Assembly: GCA_964385155.1 (NCBI GenBank)
Contig: CAYLNG010000003.1
Location: forward strand, 74,784-138,783
Source: an uncultured Verrucomicrobiota bacterium
GTDB taxonomy: Bacteria > Verrucomicrobiota > Kiritimatiellia > SS1-B-03-39 > UBA6053
Reading direction: 5' to 3'
DNA length: 64,000 bases
The notes under the pieces are model-generated. The model had not been told where the DNA came from. It was given only the letters and a program-made list of their open reading frames with translations, and searched no databases. Position numbers and translations under genes: made by a program. This document shows positions 8,149-24,855 of the stretch, in pieces. How positions within the stretch are numbered: position 1 is the first letter of the stretch; each line of letters starts with the position of its first letter.

Positions 8149-8901
8149 CTATTGTTTCAATTTCAACAGCTCATCGTCCAGCCCATAGCGAACCACGTCG
8201 ATCCGGTCGCTGCGCTGGGAAACAAAATCTCCTGTCATCACAGGGAGCTGGAATGTGAAGAATGCCGGGTTGTTCAGGAGCAGCCCCAATGCGCCCTTGG
8301 CCTCCGGGGTGGCCAGGAGTGCGGACTCGAACATCAGGATGGCCAGGTTTGGCCCGGCAATGCTCACCGGAGCGGCTTTCTCATAGCAGCCTTTGGCCTC
8401 GGAATCTTTCAGGGCTCCCCAGGCGACAAAGGAGCGGATGACGAACCGGGCATAGCGGCTGACGGTTTGCCGGTCGCCGTACTGTTCCTTCAGGCGGTTG
8501 ATGATCTGGGTCTGGGTCACCTGATCCTGCAAGGCCAGCAAACGGCCGGTCTGGCGGGCCACATTGAACCAGAAGGGATAGACCGCCGAGATCATCCCCC
8601 AGTGGACCGCCAGGGCCATGGACGGGTTTTCCCTCAGAAACGCCAGCGAGGCATCCCGGAATGGAATCAACTCGGGGTCAGGAGAGACCCAGATCTTCAT
8701 CAGATTGTTGACGACAAAGGTCCGGGTCTGATCACTTCGTTCGCCTTCGGAGCCGTTGCCTTTTCGATCCGCGAGGAACTCATGCAGCTCCTGGCGGATG
8801 GTTTTGGCGTCGAGTCTCGCCAGCAGCAGATTGGCTGCTTTTTGCATCCACTCAAAACGAATCGCCTGCTTGATGCCAATGGCTTCGTGTCTTTTGCCCA
8901 T
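8149..8901 (-). CDS. brxA: BrxA-like protein (last gene of type 3 BREX operon)
   Basis: 250 aa, no catalytic motifs. Assignment is mainly positional (terminal gene after pglZ, TGATG overlap with the pglZ stop), plus a size and helical character compatible with DUF1819/BrxA. Confidence 0.55.
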   Translation of the reverse strand: MGKRHEAIGIKQAIRFEWMQKAANLLLARLDAKTIRQELHEFLADRKGNGSEGERSDQTRTFVVNNLMKIWVSPDPELIPFRDASLAFLRENPSMALAVHWGMISAVYPFWFNVARQTGRLLALQDQVTQTQIINRLKEQYGDRQTVSRYARFVIRSFVAWGALKDSEAKGCYEKAAPVSIAGPNLAILMFESALLATPEAKGALGLLLNNPAFFTFQLPVMTGDFVSQRSDRIDVVRYGLDDELLKLKQ

Positions 8902-10955
8902 CACCGTGTCCTCCTTTCAAACTTCACAAGGGGCACGATAACTTCTTCGATGGCTACACCGCCGTGACCTACGATGGCATCTCCCGGGTTCACGAATGCG
9001 TCGCGGCCACCGGCCACCAGGGGGAAATAATCTGCGGGCAACCCGACCGGCTGCCACTCGTGGGCAAACGGGAAGGCCCCAGCCACCTGAGCTCGGAGTT
9101 CCGGCGAGGGATAGACACGAACCCGCTCGCCGCGAGTTTCGGCAATAACACCTTCAGACGGGCGGCCTTTGCCTTCGCATTGGATGTTGCCGTGATCGGC
9201 CGTCAGCCAGACATCGTAGCCGTATTCCAGCAGTTGGCCGACCAGCGCAACCAGAAACCCACCCTCGCACCATTGCTTGATCTGGTTGTGCATCCCGGCC
9301 GAACCGAGTTGCATGCCGTGCATGATCTTGTCGACCTTGTCCACGACCAGCCCCACCACCTTGGTCTTCCCGGGGTGGATTGCGGAGTCGAGGACGCCCG
9401 CAGCATCGCCGTCGCCAAGACCTCGCTGGTAGGCGACATCCAGCCGGGACAGACCATGGCCTTCCCAGAACTGCTTCCAGAGTTTCTCTTCGCTGTTGGT
9501 CGAGTTAATGGATGACGGGAAATAGAGCGGCGGCTTACCGGAGAAGATCGACTGCCGCGATACCGAGGTCAGCGTCGGAATCCAGGCGAAGGTCGCGGAT
9601 TCGCGCATGACCAGATTGGCGTCCTGCTTTTGCAGAAGCTGGCGAATGGTTACCCACTGATCCAAGGCCAGGCCGTCAACCACAATCAACGCGGCACGGC
9701 TGCTACCGGAGTCCTCGATATCCCGAGCCAGGCGGCGCGGCACATGGTGGAGCATGGCAGGATTAGTCGGCGGCAAGTTGATCAGACTGGAGTAGTGGTC
9801 GGCCAGCCAAGCGGCAAAGGTCGCGTTCAGTGCATCGCCGATTTCCCTGAGCCGGGTCTGATACTCGGTGCTGTTGCCACAATGAACCAGCGAAGAAAGT
9901 TCGGCCCATTTCAACGCAAAGGCGGTCCAGTCCGAGTAACGCGCTTCCGCAGTGGGCAGTTCCTTCTCGACAAGGCCAAACAAGCGAGAGATCCGCAGCT
10001 CGTCATCGTCCACGCCGGAGGTGGCGATGCCGCTTCGGACCCAGGACCCGGCATCCACTTCAATGCCTTTGGCCTCGACAGGGGTGAGTTTCCCCTCCAG
10101 GAACAGGTTGTCGATGTAGACCTTGATGTCCTGATGGTCGAACGGCAGGCGATCAGGGCCGGGATAACGAAAGTGCGGGGTGCGAGGTCCGTAGTGCGTT
10201 TCGGGTTCGCGAACTGTGGGTTCCGCACAGCGCACTCCGCACTTCGCACTCAAGAAGAGCGGCCAGCGTTCCTGCAAAAAGGCGAAGAAGGCCTCATCGT
10301 CCGGAACGATCTCGGAAAGCGGCCAGGCTTTGAACCCATCATGCCCTTTGAGAACCTGGATAAGCCGCTCAGCCAGCATCAGCGGGATCTGTAGCTTCCC
10401 ATAGTGCAGGCGCAGCAATGCGCGAAGCAGCTCCACCTCGCCCCCAATTAGTTCCGCCGCAATGCCGAACACATGACGGAGAATGAAATCCTTGGTGGCG
10501 TTGTCGCCCATGCGATCCGGCGGCGACTTGCGCTGGGCCTCAAAAAGCGAATCCAGCAAGCTCCTGTCGAGCTTTTCAATGACCGGATAGCTCAGGTTGG
10601 GAAAGAGATCCCCCAAGTTGAATGAAAGCTTGCGGCCCGCCTGGAGTAGGTCGTAAGGCAAAGATTCCAGCTCCGCATCCTGCAAGCGGAGGACTACCAC
10701 CAGATCGGTGTGCTCACCCCGGTCCCAGATCGAACGGTACTTTGACTCATAGGCGTATCTGAATTCGACCGGATCACTGAACTCGATCAGGTCGAACCCG
10801 CGCCCGCGAAGCTCCAATGCCAGCTTCTCCTCGGTCAGCAGACAATCCGGGTCCGCGACCAGGGTCAGCTTGCTGACGTTGGGCACAAAGTCGTTCAGGA
10901 TGGCGTCTCGCCAGGAGGGAGAGTGCGAAGTGCGTTGTGCGGAGTGCGTTGTCAT
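8901..10955 (-). CDS. pglZ: BREX alkaline-phosphatase-superfamily protein PglZ
   Basis: 684 aa. C-terminal half has a PglZ-type pattern: AALIVVDGLALDQW, IPTLTSVSRQSIFSG, VDKIMHG, WLTADHGN. ATGA overlap with the upstream four-helix-bundle gene. Confidence 0.85.
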   Translation of the reverse strand: MTTHSAQRTSHSPSWRDAILNDFVPNVSKLTLVADPDCLLTEEKLALELRGRGFDLIEFSDPVEFRYAYESKYRSIWDRGEHTDLVVVLRLQDAELESLPYDLLQAGRKLSFNLGDLFPNLSYPVIEKLDRSLLDSLFEAQRKSPPDRMGDNATKDFILRHVFGIAAELIGGEVELLRALLRLHYGKLQIPLMLAERLIQVLKGHDGFKAWPLSEIVPDDEAFFAFLQERWPLFLSAKCGVRCAEPTVREPETHYGPRTPHFRYPGPDRLPFDHQDIKVYIDNLFLEGKLTPVEAKGIEVDAGSWVRSGIATSGVDDDELRISRLFGLVEKELPTAEARYSDWTAFALKWAELSSLVHCGNSTEYQTRLREIGDALNATFAAWLADHYSSLINLPPTNPAMLHHVPRRLARDIEDSGSSRAALIVVDGLALDQWVTIRQLLQKQDANLVMRESATFAWIPTLTSVSRQSIFSGKPPLYFPSSINSTNSEEKLWKQFWEGHGLSRLDVAYQRGLGDGDAAGVLDSAIHPGKTKVVGLVVDKVDKIMHGMQLGSAGMHNQIKQWCEGGFLVALVGQLLEYGYDVWLTADHGNIQCEGKGRPSEGVIAETRGERVRVYPSPELRAQVAGAFPFAHEWQPVGLPADYFPLVAGGRDAFVNPGDAIVGHGGVAIEEVIVPLVKFERRTR
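10223..10251 (-). repeat. CGCAC-rich motif, copy 1 (inside pglZ)
   Basis: ccgcacagcgcactccgcacttcgcactc. The 21-nt core cgcactccgcacttcgcactc (10231-10251) is identical to 11337-11357. The 29-nt version matches 11329-11357 with 2 mismatches. Confidence 0.9.
10921..10948 (+). repeat. CGCAC-rich motif, copy 2 (inverted orientation, first codons of pglZ)
   Basis: gagtgcgaagtgcgttgtgcggagtgcg contains the reverse complement of the core (gagtgcgaagtgcg + gcggagtgcg) with a 4-nt insertion. It lies 4 nt from the stop of the four-helix-bundle gene. Confidence 0.85.
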
Positions 10956-23600: not shown

Positions 23601-24343
23601 CGGGCAATGAGGATCTGCTCGAAGCGGTCCTTCACCCGGCGGATGCTGTCGGCGACAAAGGCGAAGCGCGGGCTGTCGAAAATGGCTTCCTGGACACCGG
23701 CCATGAAACGGAAGCGCAGGTCCTTGCAGACCTCGCCGACCTCGCGGAGGAAGTTGAGGTCGAGGATCAGCTCCTGGTCCTTGCGGGTGCGCAGGTAATC
23801 GAGCAGTTCATCGACCACCAACAGCAGGCCATGCTCGGGGAAGACCTCGCCGAATTTGGCCATCATGTCTTCGAAGGCCCGTTTGTGGCTGGTGATGGTC
23901 CCGGCTTCGGGGAACACATACTCCACGCCGAGTTTTTCGAGATGCTCTTCCAGTTCGGCCACCAGGATGTCGCGCAGGGACATGGTGGTGGCTCCGATTT
24001 CGGTACGGATGACCTTGAAGCGCCCGGCGATCTGAGCGGCTGCGTCGCGGACACCATCGTTCTTCAGCCCTTCCAGCAGGGAGGCATCTGCGGCAAGGCT
24101 GGAGACCACCGACATCAAGTGCGACTTACCGGTGCCGTAGTTACCGACGACCAGCAGGCCCTTGTTGTCGACCGGCTGGTCGAACTGCATCTGAGGAATG
24201 ACAAGCTGGGTGAGCCGTTCGGCCATTTCCTCGGAAATGACATAGGTGTTCACGAGGGTGTGCGCGGCGCTCGATTTGTCCGCGTCACGCAACTGAACGA
24301 CCGACTCAATCGGGTCGAATTGGATAAGGTCTCCGTATTTCAT
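20612..24343 (-). CDS. brxC: BREX ATPase BrxC/PglY
   Basis: 1243 aa. The N-terminal [18 protein letters not shown]...[16 protein letters not shown] Walker A and the large size are typical of BrxC/Pgl[12 protein letters not shown] is Walker-B-like. ATGA overlap with brxF. Confidence 0.85.
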
Positions 24344-24855
24344 GCTTGTCCTGCCTCTCTATTGTTTTTTGCCGAATCGACCGTGGCCGAGCCATCCATG
24401 CCCACAATCAGCGCATCGACCGAGTCATAGCTGCGGTACTCGGGATGGCCGGTTTCGGCGTACAAAAGCCTCCCGGAATTCATGATTCCGTTCCACGAAG
24501 CCACCACGGACCGATTTCTCGAAATGGACTGCAGCAGGCGCAAGGGGTCCTGCTGGAGATCCTTGTCGAAGAGGATCTCGAGATTATCCAGCACCACGGG
24601 TGACTGAGCCTGATCCGCTATCTGGTCGAGGATGCCCGGCAACCGAAGCGACCGCTGCTTTGCCGTCAACTCAAGCAGCTCGCCGGAAAGCGCCAGATTG
24701 ACGTTGACGACGGATGAGCCGAACTCCTCGGCAACTTCCCGAAGAACGTCGGTCTTGCCGGAACCGGTCTCACCCACCAGCAACACCAGGCGGTGATACA
24801 AGCCTTCGGCTGCCTGGAGGGATCGTTTTATCTTGTCGTGAATCGGCTCGGGCAT
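24340..24855 (-). CDS. brxF: Small P-loop ATPase, BrxF-like (first gene of type 3 BREX operon)
   Basis: 171 aa from ATG 24855 (the ORF-track start at 24882 is GTG). [14 protein letters not shown] is Walker A and VVLDNLE is Walker-B-like. It sits immediately upstream of brxC. Confidence 0.6.

What the first reader, a model, noticed from the sequence alone, without database searches (positions are those of the whole stretch)
8149..24855. Type 3 BREX operon expanded to nine translationally coupled genes
The minus-strand order is brxF-like P-loop ATPase, brxC/pglY, pglXI methyltransferase, AAA+ ATPase, S8 peptidase, SNF2 helicase (brxHII), four-helix-bundle protein, pglZ, brxA-like. The canonical type 3 BREX of the Goldfarb et al. 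2015 classification has six genes (brxF, brxC, pglXI, brxHII, pglZ, brxA); here three extra genes interrupt that order. Junctions read directly from the sequence are: ATGA (brxF/brxC), TAATG (pglXI/AAA+), an 8-nt overlap (AAA+/S8), a 7-nt gap (S8/brxHII), ATGA (brxHII/4HB), ATGA (4HB/pglZ) and TGATG (pglZ/brxA). The extras are therefore built into one coupled transcription-translation unit rather than sitting beside it. This composite architecture may be an undescribed BREX variant.
Basis: partly seen in the sequence, partly recalled or inferred. Interest (0 to 1): 0.7.

Follow-up and report, generated by a model that had tools for sequence, protein, structure and literature searches.

The report
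BREX-3 operon carrying embedded IetAS
This is a real type 3 BREX phage-defence operon that carries a second, self-contained defence module (the IetAS ATPase-protease pair) and a small selfish four-helix-bundle gene cassette inside it; systems nested within BREX are an already recognised pattern, so this is not a new kind of BREX.

Summary
Six genes are a complete type 3 BREX: BrxF, BrxC, PglXI, BrxHII, PglZ and BrxA. The AAA+ and S8 genes are an IetAS-like ATPase-protease pair. The same pair (IetA 93%, IetS 85% identical) stands alone in an Akkermansia mobile element. More distant relatives stand alone in Chrysiogenes or sit inside a type I R-M operon. The four-helix-bundle gene belongs to the 23S-rRNA-IVS protein family. 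It lies in a 437-nt cassette bracketed by 31-nt inverted arms built of heptad repeats.

Of 56 related BREX-3 loci, 54 hold ORFs between pglXI and the next core gene. The cargo includes an OLD-type ATPase pair, HEC-01, HEC-03, Ppl, PsyrT, a Gabija helicase, AbiU and IetAS. Only 2 have the canonical contiguous layout. The pglXI 3' end supplies a GGAGG ribosome-binding site for whichever cargo follows.

Embedding in BREX is published (Payne et al. 2024). That study catalogued an IetAS-like embedded cassette and folded it into PADLOC's IetAS model. The locus is therefore BREX-3 with one of several interchangeable cargos, not an undescribed BREX variant. The IVS-like cassette, and an ORF-less copy inside pglZ, is the least expected feature.

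The parts
25090..25153 (.). Right-hand copy of a 64-nt direct repeat that bounds the island, just downstream of katG
   Evidence: 64-nt direct repeats, 95% identical, 17,028 bp apart; the 30-nt core occurs exactly twice in the window against 0 expected.
24856..25089 (-). AT-rich leader upstream of brxF (37% GC against about 62% nearby); presumed promoter region
   Evidence: A TTGAAT-N17-TAAAAA match at 25021-24993 was read by eye and was not flagged by the scan.
24340..24855 (-). brxF, BREX-3 P-loop protein (171 aa)
   Evidence: NCBIfam BREX_3_BrxF 201 bits (cut-off 50). PADLOC BrxF 222 bits. Walker A GETGSGKT.
20612..24343 (-). brxC/pglY ATPase (1243 aa)
   Evidence: Pfam DUF6079 1987 bits, full length. 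PADLOC BrxC 2174 bits.
20528..20611 (-). Conserved 84-nt brxC-pglXI spacer with AGTGACYAAGC repeats and a 10-bp hairpin; the only untranslated gap in the operon
   Evidence: fold z-score -3.4. No T-run follows the hairpin. In other loci this position holds a 4HB cassette.
17864..20527 (-). pglXI methyltransferase (887 aa), low GC (0.45), with a hypervariable central target-recognition insert
   Evidence: PADLOC PglXI 1126 bits. N6_N4_Mtase. Motif I, DPPF and a 4-Cys finger. Only 43-58% identical to relatives, while the other core proteins are mostly 70-99% identical.
16857..17864 (-). ietA-like AAA+ ATPase (335 aa), embedded cargo gene 1
   Evidence: PADLOC IetA PDLC04232 505 bits. Pfam AAA 107 bits. 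Walker A and B intact. NCBIfam IteA 216 bits, below its cut-off of 510.
14240..16864 (-). ietS-like S8 serine peptidase (874 aa), embedded cargo gene 2
   Evidence: PADLOC IetS PDLC04233 1097 bits, full length. Pfam Peptidase_S8. D313, H346 and S617 are invariant in 17 aligned sequences, the window's included.
11326..14232 (-). brxHII SNF2-family helicase (968 aa)
   Evidence: PADLOC BrxHI|BrxHII PDLC02500 1621 bits. SNF2-rel_dom plus Helicase_C. GLGKT and DEAH motifs.
10921..11357 (-). IVS-like cassette: a 31-nt arm, the 4HB ORF (10952-11326, 124 aa, 23S_rRNA_IVP family) and a second 31-nt arm. The arms are read as the last 10 codons of brxHII and as codons 2-12 of pglZ.
   Evidence: Pfam PF05635 124.8 bits and TIGR02436. 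PDB 2GSC, E = 3e-16. Inverted repeat 84% complementary, exactly abutting the ORF. Empty sites in L002, L008 and L014. The RNA fold pairs the arms. dN/dS 0.05.
8901..10955 (-). pglZ, BREX-3 phosphatase-family protein (684 aa)
   Evidence: NCBIfam BREX_PglZ_3 919 bits (cut-off 250). Pfam PglZ. PADLOC PglZ 1110 bits.
10168..10251 (-). ORF-less hairpin with the same heptad arms, inserted in frame inside pglZ (residues about 237-262)
   Evidence: Present in the window, L023 and L008; absent in L002 and L019.
8149..8901 (-). brxA-like gene (250 aa)
   Evidence: PADLOC BrxA PDLC02444 400 bits, full length. No Pfam or NCBIfam hit.
8062..8125 (.). Left-hand copy of the 64-nt direct repeat, between brxA and the 3' end of smc

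Best explanation
The locus is a complete type 3 BREX operon on a 17-kb island. The island lies between katG and smc and is bounded by 64-nt direct repeats. Two independent passengers have been inserted into the operon.

The first passenger is a two-gene IetAS-like module, placed between pglXI and brxHII. IetA is an AAA+ ATPase, reported as the antitoxin. IetS is an S8 serine protease, reported as the toxin and effector.

The second passenger is a 437-nt cassette between brxHII and pglZ. It encodes a four-helix-bundle protein and is flanked by inverted repeats.

Shown here: the pglXI/brxHII junction is a general cargo slot in this BREX-3 lineage. The last codons of pglXI (ATG GGA GGN GAA) supply a GGAGG ribosome-binding site. 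The start codon of whatever gene follows lies within a few bases of the pglXI stop. Cargo is therefore expressed from the BREX transcript.

Inferred: BREX-3 acts as the first line of defence. PglXI methylates host DNA, and the other BREX proteins block replication of unmethylated phage DNA. IetAS is a co-expressed second line. It would work by protease-mediated toxicity or abortive infection when phage perturbs the IetA-IetS balance. As a toxin-antitoxin-like pair it may also make the island hard to lose.

Inferred: the 4HB cassette is a selfish element tolerated in the operon, because its arms stay in frame and it carries a ribosome-binding site for pglZ.
For: Identity of the parts:
- All six BREX-3 components match specific models. 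BrxF and PglZ_3 score above the NCBIfam cut-offs.
- IetA and IetS match PADLOC models over their full length: 505 and 1097 bits.
- Catalytic and nucleotide-binding motifs are intact.

IetAS is a separable module:
- It stands alone in an Akkermansia mobile element (IetA 93%, IetS 85% identical).
- It stands alone in Chrysiogenes.
- It lies between hsdS and hsdR of a type I R-M operon.
- Full-length plasmid homologues (31-39% identical) each lie next to an ATPase gene.

The composite travels as a unit:
- Desulfococcus multivorans has the same order and the same junction geometry, but no 4HB gene. Core genes other than pglXI (about 70%) are 90-96% identical in nucleotides and show the same per-gene GC mosaic.

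The junction is a cargo slot:
- 54 of 56 related loci hold ORFs there, with more than 10 different cargo types. Two loci are contiguous.
- L033 and L066 keep remnants of ietS and ietA.
- The cargo start codon lies -3 to +4 nt from the pglXI stop in 47 of 59 junctions.
- BrxHII is about 90% identical whatever the cargo.

Selection: dN/dS is 0.05-0.07 for ietA, ietS and 4HB.

Literature:
[quoted passage not shown] An IetAS-like embedded cassette, CAS_00044, was merged into the IetAS model.
- IetAS is a toxin-antitoxin pair whose protease activity is needed for defence.
Against: - There are no expression, methylation or phage data for this locus, so a single transcript and activity of either system are inferred.
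- NCBIfam's IteA and IteS equivalog models score well below their cut-offs: 216 against 510, and 78 against 900. This is a distant IetAS subfamily whose defence activity has not been tested.
- Tight coupling, and co-inheritance of IetAS with the BREX-3 backbone across phyla, would also fit a functional link between the two systems.
- A published IetAS variant (ietHAS) needs an SNF2 helicase, and here ietS abuts the SNF2 helicase gene brxHII.
- The 4HB ORF is under strong purifying selection, so it is not mere junk.
Confidence: 0.8

Rival explanations
1. This is a genuinely integrated nine-component BREX variant. IetA, IetS and the 4HB protein would be obligate parts of the BREX machine, for example a protease effector controlled by BREX sensing.
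For: The junctions overlap or nearly abut, leaving no room for separate promoters. The same pglXI-ietA-ietS-brxHII geometry is conserved in distant taxa. IetAS variants can depend on an SNF2 helicase (ietHAS), and brxHII lies 7 nt downstream of ietS.
Against: The same IetAS occurs without any BREX gene, and also in a type I R-M operon. The same BREX-3 backbone carries other cargo or none. BrxHII does not co-vary with the cargo. L034 has IetAS but no brxHII. The 4HB gene is absent from most IetAS-bearing loci.
Confidence: 0.1
2. IetAS acts here mainly as an addiction (toxin-antitoxin) module that stabilises the 17-kb island, rather than as an antiviral effector.
For: IetAS was first described as a plasmid-stabilising toxin-antitoxin pair, and ietA mutants could not be built. 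Full-length homologues are common on rhizobial and Agrobacterium plasmids. The island has no integrase and is kept near-identical across phyla.
Against: IetAS relatives protect against phage, and this needs protease activity. The other cargos in the same slot are defence modules. The two roles are not exclusive.
Confidence: 0.25
3. The 4HB protein is a functional accessory of defence operons, for example a nucleic-acid-binding regulator or adaptor like the homologous Avd of diversity-generating retroelements. On this reading it is not a selfish passenger.
For: 4HB genes lie at three different junctions in 14 of 80 BREX-3 loci, always in the operon's orientation. dN/dS is 0.05. Genes of this family have been reported inside cas operons. 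Neighbours of other family members include a PglXI-like methylase, DUF499 and an SNF2 helicase.
Against: The ORF is bracketed by tandem-repeat inverted arms in 34 of 69 testable family members. Those members also sit next to GroEL, AtpA and LexA genes. Most BREX-3 loci lack the gene. An ORF-less copy of the arms sits inside pglZ. No reverse transcriptase lies in the island, since all nine ORFs are assigned.
Confidence: 0.2

Closest known systems
Type 3 BREX (Goldfarb et al. 2015 classification; re-analysed by Rakesh & Krishnan 2026, PMC12839542)
   Same: All six components are present in the canonical order on one strand. PglXI has the internal insert with a 4-Cys finger. BrxHII is the SNF2/RapA-like helicase.
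   Different: The canonical order is interrupted at two junctions by three genes. My survey shows that interruption at pglXI/brxHII is the rule in this lineage, not the exception.
IetAS (Gao_Iet) defence / toxin-antitoxin system
   Same: An AAA+ ATPase gene is followed by, and overlaps, an S8 protease gene. The catalytic triad and Walker motifs are intact. PADLOC IetA and IetS models match over the full length.
   Different: It is only 31-39% identical to plasmid IetS proteins and scores below the NCBIfam equivalog cut-offs. It has no promoter space of its own, because its start overlaps the pglXI stop.
Defence systems embedded in BREX, Hma, DISARM and type I R-M ('guilt-by-embedding', Payne et al. 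2024 preprint; also BrxU in the pEFER BREX and PrrC in EcoprrI)
   Same: The cargo lies in the same orientation, nested between core genes of a methylation-based system. An IetAS-like cassette (CAS_00044) was found embedded and added to PADLOC's IetAS model.
   Different: That work does not describe this particular locus, the slot-specific ribosome-binding site, or the 4HB cassette. The held tables do not show whether CAS_00044 was embedded in BREX, DISARM or type I R-M.
ietHAS (IetAS plus an essential SNF2, DrmD-like helicase; PMC13069673)
   Same: IetA and IetS lie next to an SNF2 helicase that resembles DrmD. BrxHII scores 342 bits on the PADLOC DrmD model.
   Different: Here the helicase is a BREX core gene, it lies downstream rather than being named first, and it is unchanged when other cargo fills the slot. 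I could not obtain the ietH sequence for comparison.
23S rRNA intervening sequence carrying an S23p ORF (Coxiella burnetii IVS, 428 nt; PMC4990558)
   Same: A similar size (437 nt). A four-helix-bundle ORF of the same family. Tandem heptameric repeats directly upstream of the start codon. Flanking complementary arms that can form a long stem.
   Different: It lies in an mRNA between two protein-coding genes, not in rRNA. The arms are translated as parts of the neighbouring proteins. The ORF is under purifying selection rather than decaying. RNase III cleavage is untested.

Membership tests
BREX type 3 | BrxF (BREX-3 P-loop protein) | tested here: met
   NCBIfam NF033453 201 bits against a cut-off of 50. 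PADLOC BrxF 222 bits.
BREX type 3 | BrxC/PglY ATPase | tested here: met
   Pfam DUF6079 1987 bits; PADLOC BrxC 2174 bits, full length.
BREX type 3 | PglXI methyltransferase with an internal target-recognition insert | tested here: met
   PADLOC PglXI 1127 bits. Motif I, DPPF and a 4-Cys finger between them.
BREX type 3 | BrxHII SNF2 helicase | tested here: met
   PADLOC PDLC02500 1621 bits, full length. SNF2-rel_dom plus Helicase_C.
BREX type 3 | PglZ of the BREX-3 type | tested here: met
   NCBIfam NF033449 919 bits against a cut-off of 250.
BREX type 3 | BrxA homologue | tested here: met
   PADLOC BrxA PDLC02444 400 bits over 248 of 251 profile positions. No Pfam or NCBIfam model matches.
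BREX type 3 | Site-specific host methylation and exclusion of unmethylated phage | not testable with these tools
   Needs methylome sequencing and phage assays.
   IetAS is present in 7 of 80 related loci and 4HB in 14 of 80. The slot holds more than 10 other cargo types, and 2 loci have none.
IetAS | AAA+ ATPase with Walker A and B, directly upstream of the protease gene | tested here: met
   GPPGNGKT at 124-131 and VLFFDE at 178-183. 8-nt overlap with ietS. PADLOC IetA 505 bits.
IetAS | S8 serine protease with an Asp/His/Ser triad | tested here: met
   Pfam Peptidase_S8 67.6 bits. D313, H346 and S617 invariant in 17 aligned sequences. The assignment of these three residues to the triad rests on their motifs; no solved structure matched by sequence.
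IetAS | Score above NCBIfam's equivalog cut-offs (IteA, IteS) | tested here: not met
   IteA 215.7 against 510; IteS 77.9 against 900. This is a distant subfamily, covered only by PADLOC's extended models.
IetAS | Anti-phage or toxin-antitoxin activity | not testable with these tools
   Known for relatives only.
23S rRNA IVS / S23p element | ORF of the 23S_rRNA_IVP four-helix-bundle family | tested here: met
   PF05635 124.8 bits against 33.8; TIGR02436 116 bits. PDB 2GSC, E = 3e-16.
23S rRNA IVS / S23p element | Complementary flanking arms with tandem heptamers next to the start codon | tested here: met
   31-nt arms, 84% complementary, made of four heptads. The arms pair in the minimum-free-energy fold.
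23S rRNA IVS / S23p element | Located in a 23S rRNA gene and excised by RNase III | tested here: not met
   It lies between brxHII and pglZ, and Rfam finds no rRNA in the window. RNase III cleavage cannot be tested here.
Diversity-generating retroelement (Avd) | Adjacent reverse transcriptase and template/variable repeats | tested here: not met
   All nine ORFs of the island are assigned and none is a reverse transcriptase. The only long direct repeats are the island borders and the heptad arms.

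The most novel reading that the evidence does not exclude
The four-helix-bundle gene may mark a widespread class of mobile cassettes related to rRNA intervening sequences that I did not find described for mRNAs. Each cassette is an ORF bracketed by inverted arms made of short tandem repeats. Such cassettes insert precisely at gene junctions, and ORF-less hairpin versions insert in frame inside coding regions such as pglZ. 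Because the arms are translated and the cassette carries a ribosome-binding site for the next gene, operons survive the insertion. The long stem could also make the BREX mRNA a substrate for RNase III.
Probability: 0.3. Interest if true: 0.6.

Novelty: new member of a known kind. Interest (0 to 1): 0.3.

Why it matters
For BREX itself the result is mainly a correction. In this lineage the textbook six-gene type 3 layout is rare. The pglXI/brxHII junction behaves as a plug-in slot that expresses whichever second-line defence module is installed, using a ribosome-binding site built into the end of pglXI. This locus, and the near-identical composite in Desulfococcus, give a clean natural pair for two tests. 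One is whether BREX and IetAS cooperate. The other is whether the toxin-antitoxin nature of IetAS helps the island persist.

The in-frame IVS-like cassette and its ORF-less copy in pglZ may be of wider interest, as an example of selfish DNA that preserves operon translation.

Tried and rejected
- **New BREX subtype.** Rejected. The extras vary across relatives and occur independently.
- **BrxHII tailored to IetAS, as in ietHAS.** Only the first few codons of brxHII differ with cargo; the rest is about 90% identical. I could not retrieve the ietH sequence.
- **Close relatives in E. coli genomes.** None by DNA search.
- **Viral contigs.** No match for IetS or PglZ.
- **Plasmids by DNA.** Only a 131-bp remnant of the pglXI 3' end on the Geoalkalibacter plasmid pGSUB1.
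- **tRNA or known RNA families as an integration target or regulator.** None found.
- **Internal terminators or promoters.** No more than chance.
- **Solved structure for IetS by sequence.** None.
- **A variable 'sensor' region in IetS.** Conservation is uniform along the protein.
- **Source organism.** Not recovered. The exact proteins are on a 249-kb NCBI contig and in assemblies of SRA runs SRR14492177, SRR14492188 and SRR14492199.
- **An error of my own.** In one search the ietA query was out of frame. The identities given there for ietA are wrong and were redone.
- **Literature on tandem-repeat arms around 4HB genes outside rRNA.** Nothing found in the held library. This does not prove that the feature is undescribed.

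Full report
**Observation**

The minus strand between 24855 and 8149 carries nine consecutive ORFs.

- brxF/brxC: ATGA
- pglXI/AAA+: TAATG
- AAA+/S8: 8-nt overlap
- S8/brxHII: 7-nt gap
- 4HB/pglZ: ATGA
- pglZ/brxA: TGATG

The likely pglXI start is the ATG at 20527 (MKMKETSLF). It is conserved in relatives and preceded by AGGA. This leaves an 84-nt spacer after brxC, with repeated AGTGACYAAGC motifs and a 10-bp hairpin. The operon is therefore two tightly coupled blocks.

Terminator-like and promoter-like sites are no more frequent than in shuffled sequence. The hairpin is not followed by a T-run.

**Identity of the genes**

Profile searches assign all six BREX-3 components:

| Gene | Best evidence |
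|---|---|
| BrxF | NCBIfam 201 bits against a cut-off of 50 |
| BrxC | Pfam DUF6079 1987 bits |
| PglXI | PADLOC 1127 bits |
| BrxHII | PADLOC 1621 bits |
| PglZ_3 | NCBIfam 919 bits against a cut-off of 250 |
| BrxA | PADLOC 400 bits; no Pfam or NCBIfam hit |

The AAA+ and S8 genes match PADLOC's IetA (505 bits) and IetS (1097 bits) models end to end. NCBIfam's IteA and IteS equivalogs score below their cut-offs, so this is a distant IetAS subfamily.

Functional motifs are intact:

- IetA has Walker A and Walker B.
- IetS residues D313, H346 and S617 are invariant across 17 aligned sequences (the window's IetS plus 16 homologues).
- The BREX proteins keep their nucleotide-binding and methyltransferase motifs.

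The 124-aa gene belongs to the 23S_rRNA_IVP / TIGR02436 four-helix-bundle family. It matches the Xanthomonas XCC0516 structure 2GSC.

**Surroundings**

- Upstream lies a 745-aa minus-strand gene that I read by eye as katG. Its third-position GC is 0.79, against 0.63 for the overlapping plus-strand ORF.
- Downstream, smc converges on the operon.
- A 64-nt sequence occurs at 25090-25153 and again at 8062-8125. The copies are 95% identical and 17,028 bp apart, and they bracket the operon exactly.
- The 234-nt leader before brxF is 37% GC.
- The island contains no integrase.

**IetAS is a separable module**

- IetS homologues at 94-98% identity occur in Desulfobacterota and in many metagenomes.
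- In Desulfococcus multivorans the order brxF-brxC-pglXI-ietA-ietS-brxHII-pglZ-brxA has identical junction geometry but no 4HB gene. Hachiman lies next to it.
- Core genes other than pglXI (about 70% identical) are 90-96% identical in nucleotides to the window. They show the same gene-by-gene GC mosaic, so the composite moved horizontally as a unit.
- The same pair (IetA 93%, IetS 85% identical) stands alone in an Akkermansia mobile element.
- More distant relatives (IetS about 66-68% identical) stand alone in Chrysiogenes and sit between hsdS and hsdR of a type I R-M operon.
- Full-length plasmid homologues (31-39% identical) in Rhizobium, Bradyrhizobium and Agrobacterium each lie next to an ATPase gene.

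**Survey of BREX-3 relatives**

PglZ of this clade is 92-97% identical across very different phyla. A scan of one genome per species found 249 relatives, and I examined the best 80.

In 56 loci both pglXI and the next core gene are on the contig. Of these, 54 hold at least one ORF between the two, and only L070 and L084 are contiguous.

Cargo types:

| Cargo | Loci |
|---|---|
| 640-aa OLD-type ABC ATPase with a 349-aa partner | about 16 |
| HEC-03 with an RNA ligase | about 7 |
| HEC-01-like ATPase (HEC-01B partner confirmed in 2) | about 6 |
| Ppl | about 6 |
| Schlafen-like ATPase | about 6 |
| HATPase plus PIN | 3 |
| PsyrT | 2 |
| Gabija helicase (GajB) | 1 |
| AbiU | 1 |
| IetAS | 5, plus 2 loci where pglXI is off the contig |

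Other points from the survey:

- L033 and L066 keep remnants of ietS and ietA, so cargo has been replaced or lost.
- L019 (a Geopsychrobacteraceae MAG) has the window's exact ietS-brxHII-4HB-pglZ-brxA arrangement.
- The C-terminus of PglXI (MWYDQAVTRMGGE) is nearly universal. Its codons encode GGAGG.
- The first cargo ATG lies -3 to +4 nt from the pglXI stop in 47 of 59 junctions, whatever the cargo. Translational coupling is thus a property of the slot.
- BrxHII is about 90% identical regardless of cargo.

**The 4HB cassette**

- The ORF (10952-11326) is exactly bracketed by 31-nt arms that are 84% complementary. Each arm is four heptads (GAGTGCG AAGTGCG GAGTGCG AGGTGCG).
- Loci without the gene have a simple brxHII/pglZ ATGA overlap and neither arm.
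- The arms are read as the last 10 codons of brxHII and as codons 2-12 of pglZ. This explains most of the size difference between the 684-aa PglZ here and the 664-aa PglZ elsewhere.
- The RNA fold pairs the arms.
- Other BREX-3 loci carry 4HB genes at the brxC/pglXI junction or after pglXI. They are always co-oriented with the operon, and many have different heptad arms.
- A second element, without an ORF but with the same arms, sits in frame inside pglZ at 10168-10251. It is shared with L008 and L023 and absent from L002 and L019.
- Among 80 diverse family members from metagenomes, 34 of 69 testable genes have tandem-repeat inverted arms.
- Their neighbours are mostly co-oriented. They include GroEL, AtpA and LexA genes as well as PglXI-like, DUF499 and SNF2 genes.
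- dN/dS of the ORF is 0.05.
- The layout matches the 428-nt Coxiella 23S rRNA intervening sequence. That element has heptameric repeats before the S23p start codon and is cut out by RNase III.
- Genes of this family have been noted inside cas operons.

**Mechanism**

Shown here: gene identities, intact motifs, coupling geometry, modularity and horizontal spread.

Inferred from the literature:

- BREX-3 distinguishes self by PglXI methylation and blocks phage replication.
- IetAS is a toxin-antitoxin-like pair whose protease activity is required for defence. Its antiviral mechanism is unknown.
- Embedded systems may back up the host system or be co-regulated with it.

I therefore read the locus as BREX-3 with a co-transcribed IetAS second line of defence and a tolerated selfish cassette.

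**Comparison with what is known**

- Type 3 BREX is described as six core genes.
- Embedded nuclease effectors in BREX, type 3 included, are described by Rakesh and Krishnan. They do not mention IetAS or proteases as embedded cargo.
- Payne et al. showed that BREX frequently contains embedded genes, 96.7% of them in the same orientation. Their Table S8 lists cassette CAS_00044 as 'Incorporate into IetAS model'. This probably explains the strong PADLOC IetA and IetS matches.
- IetAS co-localises with type III R-M systems in E. coli.
- ietHAS shows that IetAS can depend on an SNF2 helicase. I found no sign that BrxHII is specialised for that role.

**Verdict**

The arrangement is a new member of a known kind, and interest is modest. 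The IVS-like cassette is the most unusual element.

Noticed in passing
window 10921-11357; also L009, L011, L013, L015, L019, L023, L080, L081 and 34 of 69 testable loci among L096-L175: Genes of the 23S_rRNA_IVP four-helix-bundle family are often bracketed by inverted arms made of short tandem (often heptad) repeats, like the Coxiella rRNA intervening sequence. Here they sit at junctions of protein-coding genes with the arms translated.
   Followed up: partly
window 10168-10251 (inside pglZ, residues about 237-262): An ORF-less hairpin with the same heptad arms as the 4HB cassette is inserted in frame in pglZ. It is shared with L008 and L023 but absent from L002 and L019, and it resembles in-frame palindromic selfish elements.
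   Followed up: partly
window 8062-8125 and 25090-25153: 64-nt direct repeats (95% identical) bracket the 17-kb BREX island between katG and smc. The repeat includes half of the katG terminator hairpin. There is no integrase inside, and I could not find an empty site.
   Followed up: partly
window 17864-20527 (pglXI): GC drops to 0.45 against about 0.6 in the neighbouring genes. PglXI residues about 180-450 are hypervariable: median pairwise identity is 0.60 across 43 loci, while BrxC and PglZ are 70-99% identical. The N- and C-termini are conserved. This suggests swapping of recognition specificity.
   Followed up: partly
window 20528-20611; same position in L002, L008, L014, L016, L026 and L041: The brxC-pglXI spacer is conserved across phyla and carries AGTGACYAAGC repeats and a hairpin. 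Shorter versions in L027, L034, L035 and L055 lack the hairpin, and some loci hold a 4HB cassette at this spot. It could be a cassette remnant, a processing site or an operator.
   Followed up: partly
PglZ homologues P0121-P0240; loci L008-L087: The BREX-3 backbone is 90% or more identical in protein sequence across Desulfobacterota, Pseudomonadota, Myxococcota, Verrucomicrobiota, Planctomycetota, Synergistota and a Clostridiales bin. A partial PglZ in the same 90% cluster is labelled Methanothrix, which may be a binning artefact. This points to unusually wide and recent horizontal spread.
   Followed up: partly
L176 9001-9131 (Geoalkalibacter subterraneus plasmid pGSUB1): An isolated 131-bp remnant of the conserved pglXI 3' end lies next to an ATPase gene and an Eco57I-type methylase gene. 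This hints that cargo modules move together with the pglXI end.
   Followed up: no
L008 4155-7119 and about 15 other loci: The commonest cargo in the slot is a 640-aa OLD-type ABC ATPase (NsnB / HEC-03B / AriA-like) paired with a 349-aa protein that has no Pfam or PADLOC match.
   Followed up: no
L011, L021, L034 and L083 compared with the window: IetA is 92-97% identical while the adjacent IetS is only 65-67% identical, so the protease diverges much faster than its ATPase partner. The divergence is spread evenly along IetS.
   Followed up: partly
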